Assembly: GCA_965230895.1 (NCBI GenBank)
Contig: OZ246394.1
Location: 29,723-93,722 of the forward strand
Source: an uncultured Gammaproteobacteria bacterium
Lineage (GTDB): Bacteria; Patescibacteriota; Microgenomatia; Levybacterales; UBA12049
DNA length: 64,000 bases
Direction of reading: 5' to 3'
Shown here: positions 6,001 to 9,000 of the stretch, one piece after another
Position numbering within the stretch: the stretch's first letter is position 1
Layout of the letters: each line of letters starts with the position of its first letter
Made by a program: the position numbers

Positions 6001-9000
6001 AGCACAGTTGATATGCATTTCTCTTATCATGCTACATTCGGACATCATGGTGCAGACGCCTATGAAAAAATTATGTTGGATATCCTGAAAGGTGACCAAA
6101 TCCTGTTTAATCGCTCCGATGAACTCGATTATTCTTGGTCGCTCATTTCGCAGATTCTCAAGGGATGGGAAGAGGACTCTGAGGATGTCCCTCAATATGA
6201 GAAAGGTAAATGGGGACCAAAAGAAGCATTTGATCTTATAGAGCGAGATGGAAGAAAATGGTTGTGATTGGTATTTCTTCGCTGGTGTGTTATAAATAAT
6301 AAGTAAATTATGCAAGTAGCTATTTTAGGACTCGGAAGAATGGGCAGAAATATTGCCGAGAAGTTGATGAAAGAAGGACATCATGTTGTGGTCTGGAATC
6401 GTTCTCGAGCAATCCTTGACGAGATGCGTCAGAACGAAACAGAATATATCGTTAATGGGCAGTTGGTATTAGCTCATACTCTTGAAGAACTTCGAGATAC
6501 ACTACAAAAACCTCGTATTCTCTGGGCAATGCTTCCAGCAGGAGATCCTACAGAAAATGTCATGACACAACTTCTGGAAACAGTTGTGGAGCAAGGAGAT
6601 GTTGTTATCGATGGAGGAAATGCTTTTTATAAAGATACCGAGCGAAGAGCGCAACAGTTTGCTCAAAAATCTGTGAAGTATCTTGGAATTGGTGTTTCAG
6701 GTGGTATCGTTGGTGCAACGAATGGATACCCTCTTATGGTTGGTGGAGACCAAACTGGATATGAATATATTAAGCCTGTTCTTGATAGTCTTGTAAAGCC
6801 AAATGGGGGACATGCATACTTTGGTACAGGTGGTGCTGGACATTTTGTAAAAATGGTTCACAACGGTATTGAATATGGGATGATGCAAGCTATTGCTGAA
6901 GGTTTTGGTGTCCTTGCCAAAAGTGAATATCGACCAAATCTTATTAGCGTTGCAAACACATGGCAAAAAGGAAGTATTATCTCTAGTTTTCTTGTCTGGA
7001 TGGCTGAAAATGCAATTAGTAAGGATCCAAACCTTGCCCAATTTGATGGTTTTATTGAAGCAACTGGTGAAGGGAAATGGACTAGTGAATTCGCGAAAGA
7101 AAATCACGTGCCAACTCCTGTTTTGGATGCATCAATTGATTTTCGTAATCGATCGCAATACGATAAGGGTGTACAAGAAACATATGTCGCGAAGCTTGTC
7201 GCTGCACTTCGTCATGAATTTGGTGGACATGCGATTCATAAAGAAGATCCAATCGCTAATGGATCTGGAACTCCTCCAACACAGACTTCATAAGCCCTCA
7301 AGTTTGACTTAGCTTCACATTTTGGCTACAATATGTTCATAAAGCGTTGGAGTTTGGCATCCTACCAAACAATTTCATTTTTGAAACGCTGACTGTGGGT
7401 TTACAAGAACGAAGCAGTACGGAAAGCCTAACCGTATAAATAAGGAAACTGAAATCATTCGTATGAATAGAGTCAGTGAGTAAGGTTTCATTAGTGATAA
7501 TGAAGCGAACCAGGGTGGTACCACGAGAAATTACCTCGTCCTTGAGCTGTACAAGGGGGAGGTTTTTTTGTGCCTGAAAAATATCGTAAAATAACAACAG
7601 AAATTATACTTGCGGGAGAACATGCTGAAGCATACTTAACAAGGAAAGAATTATTGGATAAAACGCATCGAAATGAGAATGGTGAATTCTTGGTCGGGAA
7701 ATTTGCTGGACGAAAAAGAAGATCTATTCTTGGAACAACCCATGTCGAGTTTGGTTTTGTAAAAGAAACAGGCAATCGAGAGGTCATTTTATTTGGAGGA
7801 TGGCTTGGAAACAAAAAGAAGGGGCGTAAAATTTCTGTTTCACCAGAAGGAGTTGGCTTTCAACAATTTACAAATGGTGTTGATATCGTGGTTAGAACAA
7901 ATGCTGAAACAGCAGTCTATGAAGAAAATATACGCTAGAGATTATGCTATACTAACAACATGAAATATTCGAAATTATATATCAAAACAAGTAAAAATGT
8001 GCCATCTGATGAAACTGCTAAAAATGCTCAGCTCCTCATCCAAGCGGGTTTTGTTTACAAAATAATGGCTGGCGTTTATGCTTATTCGCCACTTGGTTTG
8101 CGAGTGCTTGAGAATATCAAAAAGATTGTTCGAGAAGAGATGAATGCAGTTGATGGTCAAGAGCTGATCATGTCGAGTCTTCAAAATCCTGAAACATGGA
8201 AAATTACAACAAGATGGGATGATGATGTCGTCGATGTGTGGTTCAAATCAAAACTGAAAGATGAAACTGAAATTGGTCTTGCCTGGTCTCATGAAGAGCC
8301 AATTATGGAGATGATGCAGCATGTTATTACAAGTTACCGTGATCTTCCAACAAGTGTCTATCAATTCCAAACCAAACTTCGAAATGAATTGCGTGCAAAG
8401 AGTGGAATCATGCGCGGACGAGAATTTGTCATGAAAGATATGTATTCATTGCATGCTTCAGCTGAGGATCTGGACAAATATTACAACGAAGTAATTGAGG
8501 CATACAAGAAAGTCTATGATCGGTTAGGTTTGGGAGAGGACACGTATGTTACTTTCGCAAGTGGTGGTGCATTTACCAAGTTTAGTCACGAATTCCAAAC
8601 TATTTGTGAAGCTGGAGAAGATATCTTGTATCTACATCGAGGGAAGAATATTGCTGTCAATGAAGAAGTCCTTGATGAAGCAGTTAAAGAGCTTGGCATC
8701 GATAAAAAGGATCTTGAAAAAGTGAAGAGTGCAGAAGTTGGTAATATCTTTAACTTTGGTACGGAAAAAGCAGAACAAATGGGAATTACATTTACAGATA
8801 AAGAAGGTAAGCAGCAACCAATTTACCTTGCCTCATATGGTATTGGAATTACACGTGTCATGGGAGTTATCGTTGAGAAATTTGTAGATGAGCGAGGCAT
8901 TGTCTGGCCTGAAAATGTCGCTCCTTACAAAGTGTATTTGGTTTCAATTAAAGCAAATGACAAAGCAGAGAAGTTATATAAAAATCTTCAACAAGCTGGA

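What the first reader, a model, noticed from the sequence alone, without database searches (positions are those of the whole stretch)
7304..7938. T-box leader controls an unknown 122-aa ORF ahead of an INS-less ProRS, with the ORF's RBS buried in the terminator
Seen: a well-formed T-box sequence (AACCAGGGTGGTACCACGAG) and terminator precede proS, but the first downstream ORF (7570-7938) is unknown. Its only SD-like sequence (GGGGAGG) is the 3' arm of the terminator, and its GTG start follows the T-run directly. Antitermination and ribosome access would therefore be coupled. CCU followed by A, the expected codon-plus-purine for a Pro specifier, appears in two candidate loops (7356-7364 and 7414-7422). 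I cannot decide between them by eye. The UGGU bulge predicts a tRNA with discriminator A, consistent with bacterial tRNA-Pro. The ProRS is only 410 aa and lacks the cis-editing INS domain. A co-regulated small protein of unknown function is therefore worth testing as a trans-acting partner. It does not resemble YbaK/ProX by eye, so this is speculative.
Basis: partly seen in the sequence, partly recalled or inferred. Interest (0 to 1): 0.5.

Follow-up and report, generated by a model that had tools for sequence, protein, structure and literature searches.

The report
Compact proline T-box controlling unknown protein
A real but unusually small proline-sensing T-box RNA switch in a Saccharibacterium, missed by standard RNA annotation, controls an uncharacterised 122-aa protein that always sits just upstream of the prolyl-tRNA synthetase gene, and this protein is not a replacement for the synthetase's missing editing domain.

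Summary
In detail: promoter, T-box sequence (7508-7527), terminator plus U7 (7533-7569), GGAGG inside the terminator's 3' arm, GTG at 7570, and a 410-aa ProRS without INS. One coordinate is wrong: the second CCU is at 7427-7429.

The leader scores 31.7 bits against Rfam T-box (gathering score 93). Twelve related leaders show it belongs to a conserved compact class. The specifier sits in the 7-nt terminal loop of a 6-bp hairpin (CCU 7361-7363, A7364). A mini Stem II, a IIA/B pseudoknot, Stem III, a UGGU bulge and a terminator follow. The second CCU is a pseudoknot strand with compensatory changes. Class members precede proS, proC or an aminotransferase gene.

Terminal-loop specifiers are described only for translational ileS T-boxes of Actinobacteria. 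Here the module is proline-specific and joined to a terminator, and the start codon usually abuts the U-tract.

ORF122 is a real gene (dN/dS 0.23-0.31; confident beta-rich model). Its rare family has no Pfam, PDB or fold match. In 8 of 8 informative contexts it lies about 20-36 nt upstream of proS, including genomes whose ProRS keeps INS. The trans-editing idea is therefore not supported.

A conserved TGnTATACT 6-7 nt before the proS ATG suggests proS also has its own promoter.

The parts
7304..7332 (+). Leader promoter: -35 TTGACT (7304-7309), 17-nt spacer, -10 TACAAT (7327-7332). The predicted transcription start is about 7339-7341, just before AAAGCG.
   Evidence: 10 of 12 match. TTGACA/T plus TAnAAT stand in the same position in L001, L081, L207, L208 and L209.
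7343..7390 (+). Closing helix P0 (AGCGUU 7343-7348 with AACGCU 7385-7390). It encloses the specifier hairpin and a lineage-specific hairpin B (7375-7384).
   Evidence: Fold. The AGC:GCU core is invariant in 5 of 5 leaders. Hairpin B covaries in L081 (UUUCA/UGAAA becomes AUUCC/GGAAU, read).
7352..7370 (+). Ultrashort Stem I: a 6-bp hairpin GUUUGG/CCAAAC with the 7-nt terminal loop CAUCCUA. The specifier is CCU (7361-7363, Pro), followed by purine A7364.
   Evidence: Loop positions 4-6 are CCY and position 7 is a purine in the 10 leaders with the GUUUGR hairpin, including L147 and L162, which were not used to build the model. The stem is 100% paired, with a compensated G-C to A-U change in L081.
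7392..7418 (+). Mini Stem II (ACUGU 7392-7396 with GCAGU 7414-7418) with a purine-rich interior.
   Evidence: Three of 5 pairs show changes on both sides across 8 leaders, and all cells are paired.
7419..7445 (+). Stem IIA (ACGG 7419-7422 with CCGU 7432-7435, F-box-like CCGUA) and the IIB pseudoknot (CCU 7427-7429 with AGG 7443-7445).
   Evidence: IIA is invariant. The IIB complement is present in 8 of 8 leaders at a constant position, in 6 sequence versions: CCU/AGG, CUU/AAG, GUC/GAC, GUCA/UGAC, GUCU/AGAC and GGA/UCC. L147 adds a seventh, GGAU/AUCC, and L162 has GUCA/UGAC.
7448..7477 (+). Extra hairpin with an internal loop, between the pseudoknot and Stem III (ACUGA 7448-7452 with UCAGU 7473-7477).
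   Evidence: Fold. A hairpin occupies the same position in other members (GCGUGUCG...CGGAGCGC), read. Its role is unknown.
7485..7506 (+). Stem III (9 bp, loop GUGA), followed by GAA.
   Evidence: Aligned to Stem III of RF00230 with high posterior probability. Fold.
7508..7544 (+). T-box sequence and antiterminator. The bulge UGGUACC (7516-7522) would pair with the tRNA 3' end ACCA.
   Evidence: GGUGGUACC is conserved in all twelve leaders.
7533..7569 (+). Intrinsic terminator hairpin plus U7. Its 3' arm contains the Shine-Dalgarno GGAGG (7558-7562) of ORF122.
   Evidence: A hairpin plus U6-8 is present in 10 of 10 leaders. The start codon comes 0 nt after the U-run in 7 of 10.
7570..7938 (+). 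ORF122: a basic, proline-poor, beta-rich protein of an uncharacterised family, with a GTG start.
   Evidence: dN/dS 0.23-0.31. Twenty cluster representatives among 1.84 billion proteins. AF2 pLDDT 85.8. No Pfam, PDB, PHROG or PADLOC hit.
7945..7953 (+). TGCTATACT, an extended -10-like element ending 6 nt before the proS ATG. It is a candidate promoter for a leaderless proS mRNA.
   Evidence: TG(C/T)TATACT is conserved in the ORF-proS spacer of all 6 genomes, including those at 30% ORF identity. Similar -10 elements abut proS in many other Saccharibacteria. Function is inferred.
7960..9192 (+). proS: bacterial-type prolyl-tRNA synthetase, 410 aa, without the INS editing domain.
   Evidence: TIGR00409 scores 380 bits (cutoff 306.7), matched in two pieces. 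PF00587 and PF03129 hit; PF04073 does not.

Best explanation
This is a proline-specific T-box riboswitch of a compact, previously uncatalogued class.

Decoding. Uncharged tRNA-Pro, most likely the GGG-anticodon isoacceptor, pairs its anticodon with CCU in the terminal loop of a 6-bp hairpin (7352-7370). A7364 stacks below the codon. A 5-bp mini Stem II and a IIA/B pseudoknot take the place of the missing long Stem I and its elbow-binding platform.

Switching. The free ACCA end of the tRNA pairs with UGGU in the bulge (7516-7519). This holds the antiterminator together, so RNA polymerase reads through the terminator at 7533-7569. The same rearrangement frees the terminator's 3' arm, which is the Shine-Dalgarno sequence of the next gene. 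That gene's GTG follows the U-tract directly, so the U-tract doubles as the SD-start spacer.

Regulated gene. The first gene controlled is ORF122, a small, basic, proline-poor beta-barrel-like protein. Its family is always found about 20-36 nt upstream of proS. Read-through transcripts continue into proS. proS also appears to have its own extended -10 promoter (7945-7953), which would start a leaderless mRNA at its ATG.

Shown: the RNA architecture, the proline specificity, the alternative hairpins, that ORF122 is a real gene, and its fixed position next to proS.
Inferred: tRNA binding, the dual transcriptional and translational control, the internal promoter, and any function of ORF122. My best guess is an accessory to ProRS or tRNA-Pro used during proline shortage, at about 0.3.
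For: RNA:
- The 3' half aligns to RF00230.
- Twelve leaders of the class were read: the window, L001, L081, L033, L039, L150, L112, L207, L208, L209, L147 and L162.
- On 8 leaders, 100% of 120 cells are paired, against 27-40% when partners are slid. Four pairs show double changes. The covariation score is 0.307 against 0.126, with 0 of 500 shuffles reaching it.
- The pseudoknot complement is present in 8 of 8 leaders in 6 versions.
- A covariance model of the decoding module hits the window once (70 bits). It also recovers L162 (87.7 bits) and L147 (82.4 bits), which were not in the model. Both have the loop UUUCCCG and ProRS downstream.
- Downstream genes of the class are proS, P5C reductase, a class-III aminotransferase and a tRNA_bind protein.
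- A terminator plus U6-8 is present in 10 of 10 leaders. The start codon abuts the U-run in 7 of 10.

ORF122:
- dN/dS is 0.23-0.31.
- The family has 20 representatives.
- Over-extended gene calls translate to 'GGGFFV' and 'ARWYHE', which are the terminator and the T-box sequence.
- Eight of 8 informative contexts have proS directly downstream.
- The AF2 model has pLDDT 85.8.
- The family has median 1.7% Pro, against 5.8% for long ORFs in the window, and a pI of about 9-10.

Internal promoter.
Against: - RF00230 scores only 27-40 bits for the whole class, against a gathering score of 93.
- No canonical K-turn or Stem II S-turn could be assigned. The literature considers both essential for short-Stem-I T-boxes (PMC7583486).
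- The literature states that transcriptional T-boxes generally need the long Stem I with its elbow platform (PMC7583486), so termination control by this RNA is unproven.
- The specifier's third base is U in the window, although C is preferred in known T-boxes.
- No tRNA-Pro gene was available to check the anticodon or the discriminator.
- Terminator-like sites in the window are only weakly enriched over shuffles: 57 found against about 44 expected.
- ORF122 has no functional homologue, so its role is a guess.
- The internal promoter is a consensus match only.
Confidence: 0.78

Rival explanations
1. ORF122 is a trans-acting editing partner, functionally like YbaK or ProXp-ala, recruited because this ProRS has lost its cis-editing INS domain.
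For: - It is co-transcribed with an INS-less ProRS.
- It is basic, so it could bind tRNA.
- Small tRNA-binding proteins do accompany proS in other operons of the same T-box class.
Against: - Family members occupy the same position next to ProRS enzymes of 559 and 569 aa that retain PF04073.
- Seventy-nine of the 80 related INS-less Saccharibacteria proS loci have no such ORF.
- No member hits PF04073.
- hhalign against an INS-containing ProRS gives 0.2% probability.
- The predicted fold is all-beta. Its best matches are secretin and small-barrel domains, not the alpha/beta YbaK fold.
Confidence: 0.05
2. The switch is purely translational, like the actinobacterial class II T-boxes. On this view the hairpin 7533-7563 is an SD sequestrator and the U-run is only the SD-start spacer, with no transcription termination.
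For: - The decoding module lacks the elbow platform. [quoted passage not shown]
- The SD lies inside the hairpin and the start codon abuts the U-run in 7 of 10 leaders.
- Intrinsic-terminator-like sites are barely enriched in the window.
Against: - A run of 6-8 U directly after a GC-rich stem is kept in 10 of 10 leaders.
- In L033 and L039 the ATG lies 21 nt beyond the U-run. The hairpin's purine arm is then about 30 nt from the start and cannot act as its SD.
- In L209 the start is 9 nt past the U-run.
- A spacer of exactly 6-8 U is not needed for SD spacing.
Confidence: 0.15
3. The T-box effectively controls only ORF122. proS is expressed from its own promoter (7945-7953) as a leaderless mRNA, and it is hardly translated from read-through transcripts because its internal ATG has no SD.
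For: - TGnTATACT ending 6-7 nt before the proS ATG is conserved in all six ORF-bearing genomes. It is more conserved than the flanking coding sequence, and it persists in L081 despite a 43-nt insertion after it.
- No SD precedes the proS ATG.
- Many other Saccharibacteria proS genes have a -10 element abutting the ATG.
Against: - No terminator separates ORF122 from proS on the + strand, so read-through transcripts must contain proS.
- The constant 21-nt spacer would allow re-initiation.
- In the ORF-less members (L033, L039, L150, L112, L147, L162) the same T-box class does control proS.
- The promoter is only a consensus match.
Confidence: 0.3
4. ORF122 is not a functional protein. It is either a chance ORF or a translated spacer whose only role is to carry ribosomes to proS.
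For: - It has no database annotation.
- It evolves about nine times faster than proS between the window and L001 (dN 0.31 against 0.034).
Against: - dN/dS is 0.23-0.31 in three pairwise comparisons.
- Length, start and motifs (NREV, LRxKG..RxVSV, GxGxQQxTxGV) are conserved down to 30% identity.
- A confident AF2 fold comes from only 6 sequences (pLDDT 85.8).
Confidence: 0.04

Closest known systems
Canonical transcriptional T-box riboswitches (Rfam RF00230), for example the proline-responsive leaders of Bacillus proBA/proI and the proS leaders of Firmicutes
   Same: - Stem III, the T-box sequence, the 7-nt UGGN-ACC bulge, and a mutually exclusive antiterminator and terminator with a U-tract.
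- A Stem IIA/B pseudoknot with an F-box-like CCGUA.
- A specifier codon followed by a purine that matches the amino acid of the downstream genes.
   Different: - There is no long Stem I: no internal specifier loop, no AG bulge or distal loop (the elbow-binding double T-loop), and no clear K-turn.
- The specifier sits in a terminal loop.
- Stem II is reduced to a 4-5 bp hairpin.
- The class scores 27-40 bits against the 93-bit threshold.
- It occurs in Saccharibacteria and related uncultured bacteria.
Ultrashort-Stem-I (class II, translational) ileS T-boxes of Actinobacteria (Mycobacterium, Nocardia; Sherwood et al. 2015, as described in PMC7583486 and 10.1101/2023.02.28.530422)
   Same: - The specifier is mounted in the apical loop of a short helix and followed by a purine.
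- There is no elbow-binding platform.
- The Stem II domain and IIA/B pseudoknot are retained.
- The SD lies inside the alternative hairpin.
   Different: - That class is described as regulating only ileS with tRNA-Ile, acting on translation only, and occurring in Actinobacteria.
- Here the codon is proline, and the targets are proS, proC, an aminotransferase gene and ORF122.
- A U6-8 tract makes the hairpin an intrinsic terminator.
- Stem II is much smaller, with no assignable S-turn.
Free-standing partners of ProRS: the YbaK/ProXp-ala trans-editing proteins (PF04073 superfamily) and tRNA_bind proteins of the Trbp111/CsaA type (PF01588)
   Same: - A small protein encoded next to proS.
- tRNA_bind proteins occupy a comparable place in other operons of this same T-box class (L150, L147, L162).
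   Different: - ORF122 shows no sequence, profile or fold similarity to either family.
- It co-occurs with ProRS both with and without INS.
Riboswitch expression platforms that combine termination with SD sequestration (recalled from general knowledge, not checked in papers here)
   Same: One hairpin serves both as a terminator and as an SD mask.
   Different: The T-box papers I read describe the two modes as separate classes. Here they appear fused, with the U-tract acting as the SD-start spacer.

Membership tests
T-box riboswitch (RF00230) | Conserved T-box sequence forming an antiterminator, with a 7-nt bulge UGGN-ACC between helices A1 and A2 | tested here: met
   Bulge UGGUACC at 7516-7522, A1 at 7511-7515:7540-7544, A2 at 7523-7527:7535-7539. 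GGUGGUACC is conserved in all twelve leaders.
T-box riboswitch (RF00230) | [quoted passage not shown] | tested here: met
   The terminator folds at -16.4 kcal/mol and the antiterminator at -9.1. The arrangement is present in 10 of 10 leaders.
T-box riboswitch (RF00230) | A specifier codon followed by a purine, matching the amino acid of the regulated genes | tested here: met
   CCY plus R at loop positions 4-7 in the 10 leaders with the GUUUGR hairpin. Downstream genes are proS, proC and an ornithine-type aminotransferase.
T-box riboswitch (RF00230) | A long Stem I with a K-turn, an internal specifier loop and a distal elbow-binding platform (AG bulge plus distal loop) | tested here: not met
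   The RF00230 alignment skips 69 model positions of Stem I. Stem I here is a 6-bp hairpin with a 7-nt loop. A GA/GA tandem is present in some members only (by eye).
T-box riboswitch (RF00230) | Score at or above Rfam's gathering threshold | tested here: not met
   The window scores 31.7 bits and relatives 27-40, against 93.
T-box riboswitch (RF00230) | Binding of uncharged cognate tRNA causes read-through | not testable with these tools
   This needs in vitro antitermination or binding assays.
Ultrashort-Stem-I translational ileS T-box (class II) | Specifier in the terminal loop of a short helix, with no elbow platform | tested here: met
   Hairpin 7352-7370, covariation-supported.
Ultrashort-Stem-I translational ileS T-box (class II) | A Stem II with an S-turn, plus a IIA/B pseudoknot | tested here: inconclusive
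   The pseudoknot is well supported. Stem II is a 4-5 bp hairpin with a GANGA-type loop, and no S-turn could be assigned.
Ultrashort-Stem-I translational ileS T-box (class II) | Regulates ileS in response to tRNA-Ile | tested here: not met
   The codon is proline and the genes are proline genes.
Ultrashort-Stem-I translational ileS T-box (class II) | Acts by SD sequestration without an intrinsic terminator | tested here: not met
   A U6-8 tract follows the hairpin in 10 of 10 leaders. In L033 and L039 the start codon is 21 nt further on. The actual mode of action is not testable here.
YbaK/ProX/INS trans-editing domain (PF04073), considered for ORF122 | Sequence or profile similarity to PF04073 | tested here: not met
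   None of 23 members hit it. hhalign against an INS-containing ProRS gives 0.2%.
YbaK/ProX/INS trans-editing domain (PF04073), considered for ORF122 | The alpha/beta YbaK fold | tested here: not met
tRNA_bind OB-fold (PF01588), considered for ORF122 | Profile similarity to PF01588 proteins | tested here: not met
   hhalign gives 0.3%. There is no Pfam hit.
Bacterial-type ProRS lacking INS, for the gene at 7960-9192 | Class II core plus the anticodon-binding domain, a match to TIGR00409, and no PF04073 | tested here: met
   The ProRS matches in the 80 related loci cover 381-410 of the query's residues, so this short form is typical of the group.

The most novel reading that the evidence does not exclude
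Two linked novelties. First, this is a class of T-box riboswitch that terminates transcription without the elbow-binding Stem I platform and uses one hairpin as both terminator and SD mask. That would make it a hybrid between the two recognised T-box classes, found in the reduced genomes of Saccharibacteria and their relatives. Second, its main target, the ORF122 family, is a new proline-starvation-induced factor that works with ProRS or tRNA-Pro, whether or not the enzyme has its editing domain.
Probability: 0.3. Interest if true: 0.75.

Novelty: new variant of a known kind. Interest (0 to 1): 0.6.

Why it matters
- Annotation. Standard annotation with Rfam RF00230 misses this whole class, so T-box regulation in Saccharibacteria and similar bacteria is probably under-counted. 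No paper in the searchable library links T-boxes with Saccharibacteria, Patescibacteria or the Candidate Phyla Radiation.
- Mechanism. The field holds that transcriptional T-boxes need the long Stem I to capture tRNA quickly, and that terminal-loop specifiers are confined to translational ileS leaders of Actinobacteria. A proline-specific, terminator-bearing version would test that rule. It also bears on an open question stated in the 2020 review: which class evolved first.
- Protein. ORF122 is an uncharacterised family with a strict, ancient link to proS and to a proline sensor. That makes it a concrete candidate for a new player in proline charging or in the starvation response.

Tried and rejected
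- Rfam at gathering threshold on the whole window gave nothing.
- A strict T-box motif search in the 80 related proS loci gave nothing. The pattern had to be loosened.
- The single metagenome scan with the T-box core returned mostly unrelated T-boxes. Only L112, L147, L150 and L162 belong to this class.
- tRNA searches in the window and in 67 loci found no tRNA-Pro, so the anticodon and discriminator predictions remain untested.
The AFDB50 fold library was not available.
- I considered specifier candidate 2 (7427-7429) and rejected it. It becomes CUU in L001 with a compensating AGG to AAG change downstream, and it is non-proline in other members (GUC, GGA).
- I tried to assign a K-turn at the base of the specifier hairpin and an S-turn in Stem II by eye. 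GA/GA tandems exist in the window, L207 and L209 but not in L150, L112 or L208, so this is inconclusive.
- I tested ORF122 as a tRNA_bind OB-fold, a YbaK/INS domain, a phage protein and a defence protein. All were negative.
- The PDB sequence hit 3hcw (E = 8e-4, 23 bits) is judged spurious.
- The genome-wide terminator scan was too weakly enriched to show that intrinsic termination is common in this organism.
- L033 and L039 fit the decoding-module model only weakly (16-18 bits), and their loop register differs (UUCCCAG). I treat them as a divergent subclass.
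Full report
**What is there**

The window comes from a Saccharibacterium (TM7, Patescibacteria). The closest proS loci in public genomes are almost all Saccharimonadales assemblies.

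Downstream of the G6PD and 6PGD genes lie, in order:
- a sigma-70-type promoter (TTGACT 7304-7309, TACAAT 7327-7332);
- a leader of about 230 nt;
- the T-box sequence at 7508-7527;
- an antiterminator with the bulge UGGUACC at 7516-7522;
- a competing hairpin, 7533-7544:7552-7563, followed by U7. It folds at -16.4 kcal/mol against -9.1 for the antiterminator.

GGAGG at 7558-7562 lies inside the hairpin's 3' arm, and the GTG of a 122-codon ORF follows the U-run at 7570. After a 21-nt spacer comes proS. Its product is 410 aa and bacterial-type, and it matches TIGR00409 in two pieces with no PF04073 editing domain.

The second CCU-A is at 7427-7430, not within 7414-7422.

**Is it a T-box?**

RF00230 gives 31.7 bits against 93, with only Stem III, the T-box sequence and the antiterminator aligned confidently.

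Comparative data show this is a limit of the model, not of the RNA. I collected twelve related leaders:
- L001 and L081, close relatives with the same gene order;
- L207, L208 and L209, distant relatives with the same gene order;
- L150, L112, L147 and L162, from metagenomes;
- L033 and L039, a divergent short form placed directly before proS.

The nine relatives I scanned score 27-40 bits or lower against RF00230 (L033 and L209 gave no match at E ≤ 0.1), so the class falls below the standard threshold.

**Architecture and specifier**

Apart from L033 and L039, a divergent short form treated under "What I could not settle", the leaders share the following elements:
- AAAGCGUU at the 5' end and a closing helix AGC:GCU.
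- A 6-bp hairpin, GUUUGG/CCAAAC, with a 7-nt terminal loop.
- A 4-5 bp hairpin that I call mini Stem II.
- Stem IIA (ACGG/CCGU, with an F-box-like CCGUA), whose loop pairs with a triplet 7-10 nt downstream to form the IIB pseudoknot.
- A further hairpin, then Stem III, then the discriminator.

The formal count on eight leaders gave these results:

| Measure | Observed | Control |
|---|---|---|
| Cells forming standard pairs | 100% of 120 | 27-40% when partners are slid by 1-3 columns |
| Pairs with changes on both sides | 4 | shuffled mean 2.1 |
| Covariation score | 0.307 | 0.126 in shuffles; 0 of 500 reach the observed value |

The terminal loop reads NNN-CCY-R in every case: CAUCCUA, CUUCCUA, UUUCCUG, UUUCCCG, UCUCCCG and UAUCCCG.

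It becomes CUU in L001 while the downstream AGG becomes AAG. In other members the pair is GUC/GAC, GUCA/UGAC, GUCU/AGAC or GGA/UCC. One such 3-nt complement has an 11-47% chance of arising at random. Finding it in 8 of 8 leaders, at a fixed position and in six versions, is not chance.

**Independent test**

I built a covariance model of the decoding module from eight leaders.
- It hits the window once (7341-7449, 70 bits).
- It hits none of the other Saccharibacteria proS loci above noise.
- It recovers two leaders it had not seen, L162 (87.7 bits) and L147 (82.4 bits).

Both new leaders have the loop UUUCCCG, a pseudoknot complement (GUCA/UGAC and GGAU/AUCC) and ProRS downstream. That ProRS looks like the archaeal-like type from its sequence, which I did not confirm with a family model.

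Across the class the downstream genes are proS, P5C reductase, a class-III (ornithine-type) aminotransferase and tRNA_bind proteins. The proline assignment is secure.

**How it compares with known T-boxes**

The reviews I read state the following (PMC7583486; 10.1101/2023.02.28.530422):
- A specifier "mounted in an apical loop" occurs in the short Stem I's of translational T-boxes.
- The ultrashort class regulates only ileS.

The present class has the apical-loop specifier and no room for that platform; the whole decoding module is 79-81 nt in L150 and L112. Yet it ends in a GC-rich hairpin with 6-8 U in ten of ten leaders.

In seven of the ten leaders a start codon follows the U-run with no gap. 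That covers the ORF122-family gene in five leaders, the proC-like gene in L150 and a 6-codon mini-ORF in L112. The purine-rich 3' arm then serves as the SD and the U-tract as the spacer.

In L033 and L039 the ATG is 21 nt further on, so the hairpin there can only be a terminator.

I conclude that the class most likely acts on transcription and, where the gene abuts the U-run, on translation as well. Both modes are inferred from sequence. No paper in the library mentions T-boxes together with Saccharibacteria, Patescibacteria or the Candidate Phyla Radiation. Proline T-boxes as such are known in Firmicutes.

**ORF122**

The word-indexed protein search found only the protein itself and one relative at 63% identity. 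The exhaustive profile search found 20 cluster representatives among 1.84 billion, nearly all 110-140 aa. The alignment shows shared motifs: NREV, LRxKG..RxVSV and GxGxQQxTxGV..VxT.A.

Evidence that it is a real gene:
- dN/dS is 0.23-0.31 among the window, L001 and L081, so it is under purifying selection. It still evolves much faster than proS: dN is 0.31 against 0.034 between the window and L001.
- AlphaFold gives a confident beta-rich model (pLDDT 85.8, pTM 0.78).

**Genomic context of the family**

Several members were called with N-terminal extensions reading GGGFFV or ARWYHE. These are translations of the terminator arm plus U-run and of the T-box sequence.

In every context I could inspect, the ORF lies about 20-36 nt upstream of proS and usually after G6PD and 6PGD. 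Those contexts are the window, L001, L081, L207, L208, L209 and the P0007 and P0018 contigs. In the six for which DNA was available, a proline T-box of this class precedes the ORF.

In L207 and L208 the ProRS is 569 and 559 aa and carries PF04073. Conversely, 79 of the 80 INS-less proS loci of related genomes have no such ORF. Profile comparison of the family with an INS-containing ProRS and with a tRNA_bind protein gives 0.2% and 0.3% probability.

The idea that ORF122 replaces the missing editing domain is therefore not supported. The weaker statement, that ORF122 is functionally tied to proS and to proline limitation, is well supported by synteny.

The family is basic (pI about 9-10 in 21 of 23 members) and proline-poor (median 1.7%, against 5.8% for long ORFs of the window). 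Both fit a nucleic-acid-binding protein made when proline is scarce, but this is weak evidence.

**A second promoter**

The ORF-proS spacer contains TG(C/T)TATACT ending 6-7 nt before the proS ATG in five of the six ORF-bearing genomes. It is more conserved than the coding sequence on either side. In L081 the element is retained, but a 43-nt insertion separates it from the start.

It reads as an extended -10 element placed to start a leaderless mRNA at the ATG. No SD precedes proS. Many other Saccharibacteria proS genes have a GGTACAAT or GGTATAAT element in the same place.

I infer that proS has a basal promoter of its own and that T-box read-through adds to it. No + strand terminator lies between the ORF and proS. 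How much proS translation comes from read-through transcripts is open, and I list this as a rival reading.

**What I could not settle**
- No tRNA-Pro gene is in the window or in 67 related loci. The predictions of a GGG anticodon and discriminator A rest on general knowledge of T-box and tRNA pairing.
- I could not assign a K-turn or an S-turn, both of which are considered important in short-Stem-I T-boxes.
- L033 and L039 differ in loop register (UUCCCAG) and fit the model only weakly.
- Terminator-like sites are only slightly enriched in the window: 57 against about 44 expected.
- The AFDB fold library was not available.

**Verdict**

The finding is real and more interesting than a routine T-box, but for reasons other than those proposed. 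It is a new variant of a known kind of riboswitch. Its first regulated gene is an uncharacterised protein family strictly linked to proS.

Noticed in passing
window 7939-7959 (TGCTATACT at 7945-7953); L001 2980-3000; L081 1137-1160; L207 5427-5447; L208 5355-5375; L209 2360-2395: The ORF-proS spacer carries a conserved extended -10-like element ending 6-7 nt before the proS ATG. This suggests a leaderless proS mRNA from its own promoter. In L081 a 43-nt insertion follows the element.
   Followed up: partly
L150 (- strand, within 6855-7093), L207 about 4875-4900, L209 about 1858-1880, L147 (- strand): Inside the Stem III region of several leaders, upstream of the T-box sequence, there is a GC-rich hairpin followed by U6-7 (for example CCACCGAAAGGUGGAUUUUUU). 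It looks like an additional intrinsic terminator within the leader. The window lacks it.
   Followed up: no
L150 5745-6080 (-), L162 5562-5906 (-), L147 (- strand, about 400 nt after the leader start): Small tRNA_bind (PF01588, Trbp111/CsaA-like) proteins are encoded next to proS in three operons controlled by the same T-box class. Two of those operons have a ProRS that looks archaeal-like. PF01588 was confirmed for the L150 and L147 proteins only.
   Followed up: partly
L112, directly after the leader U-run (- strand, below 3311): A 6-codon mini-ORF (MSVKNS*) starts immediately after the terminator U-run, before the aminotransferase gene.
   Followed up: no
window 7570-9192 compared with L001 and L081: Divergence is discordant. 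ORF122 is 61-64% identical in all three pairs, whereas ProRS is 94% identical between the window and L001 but only 55% identical to L081. This could mean fast saturation of ORF122 or replacement of proS in one lineage.
   Followed up: no
window 9193-9990 (-): A 265-aa Pro/Thr/Ser-rich protein with a hydrophobic C-terminus and no Pfam hit, convergent with proS.
   Followed up: no
window 10087-13053 (+): A 988-aa ORF of unknown identity directly downstream. It was not analysed.
   Followed up: no
L001, L005, L011, L013, L017, L022 and other record titles: Several contigs with Saccharibacteria-type proS loci are labelled in their public records as Gammaproteobacteria, Bdellovibrionales, Nevskiaceae or Magasanikbacteria. 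These are probably mislabelled bins.
   Followed up: no
L207 5448-7157 and L208 5376-7055, compared with the window and the 80 loci: Within genomes that share the G6PD-6PGD-leader-ORF-proS gene order, ProRS occurs both with INS (559-569 aa) and without it (408-416 aa). The editing domain was therefore lost, or gained, within this lineage.
   Followed up: partly
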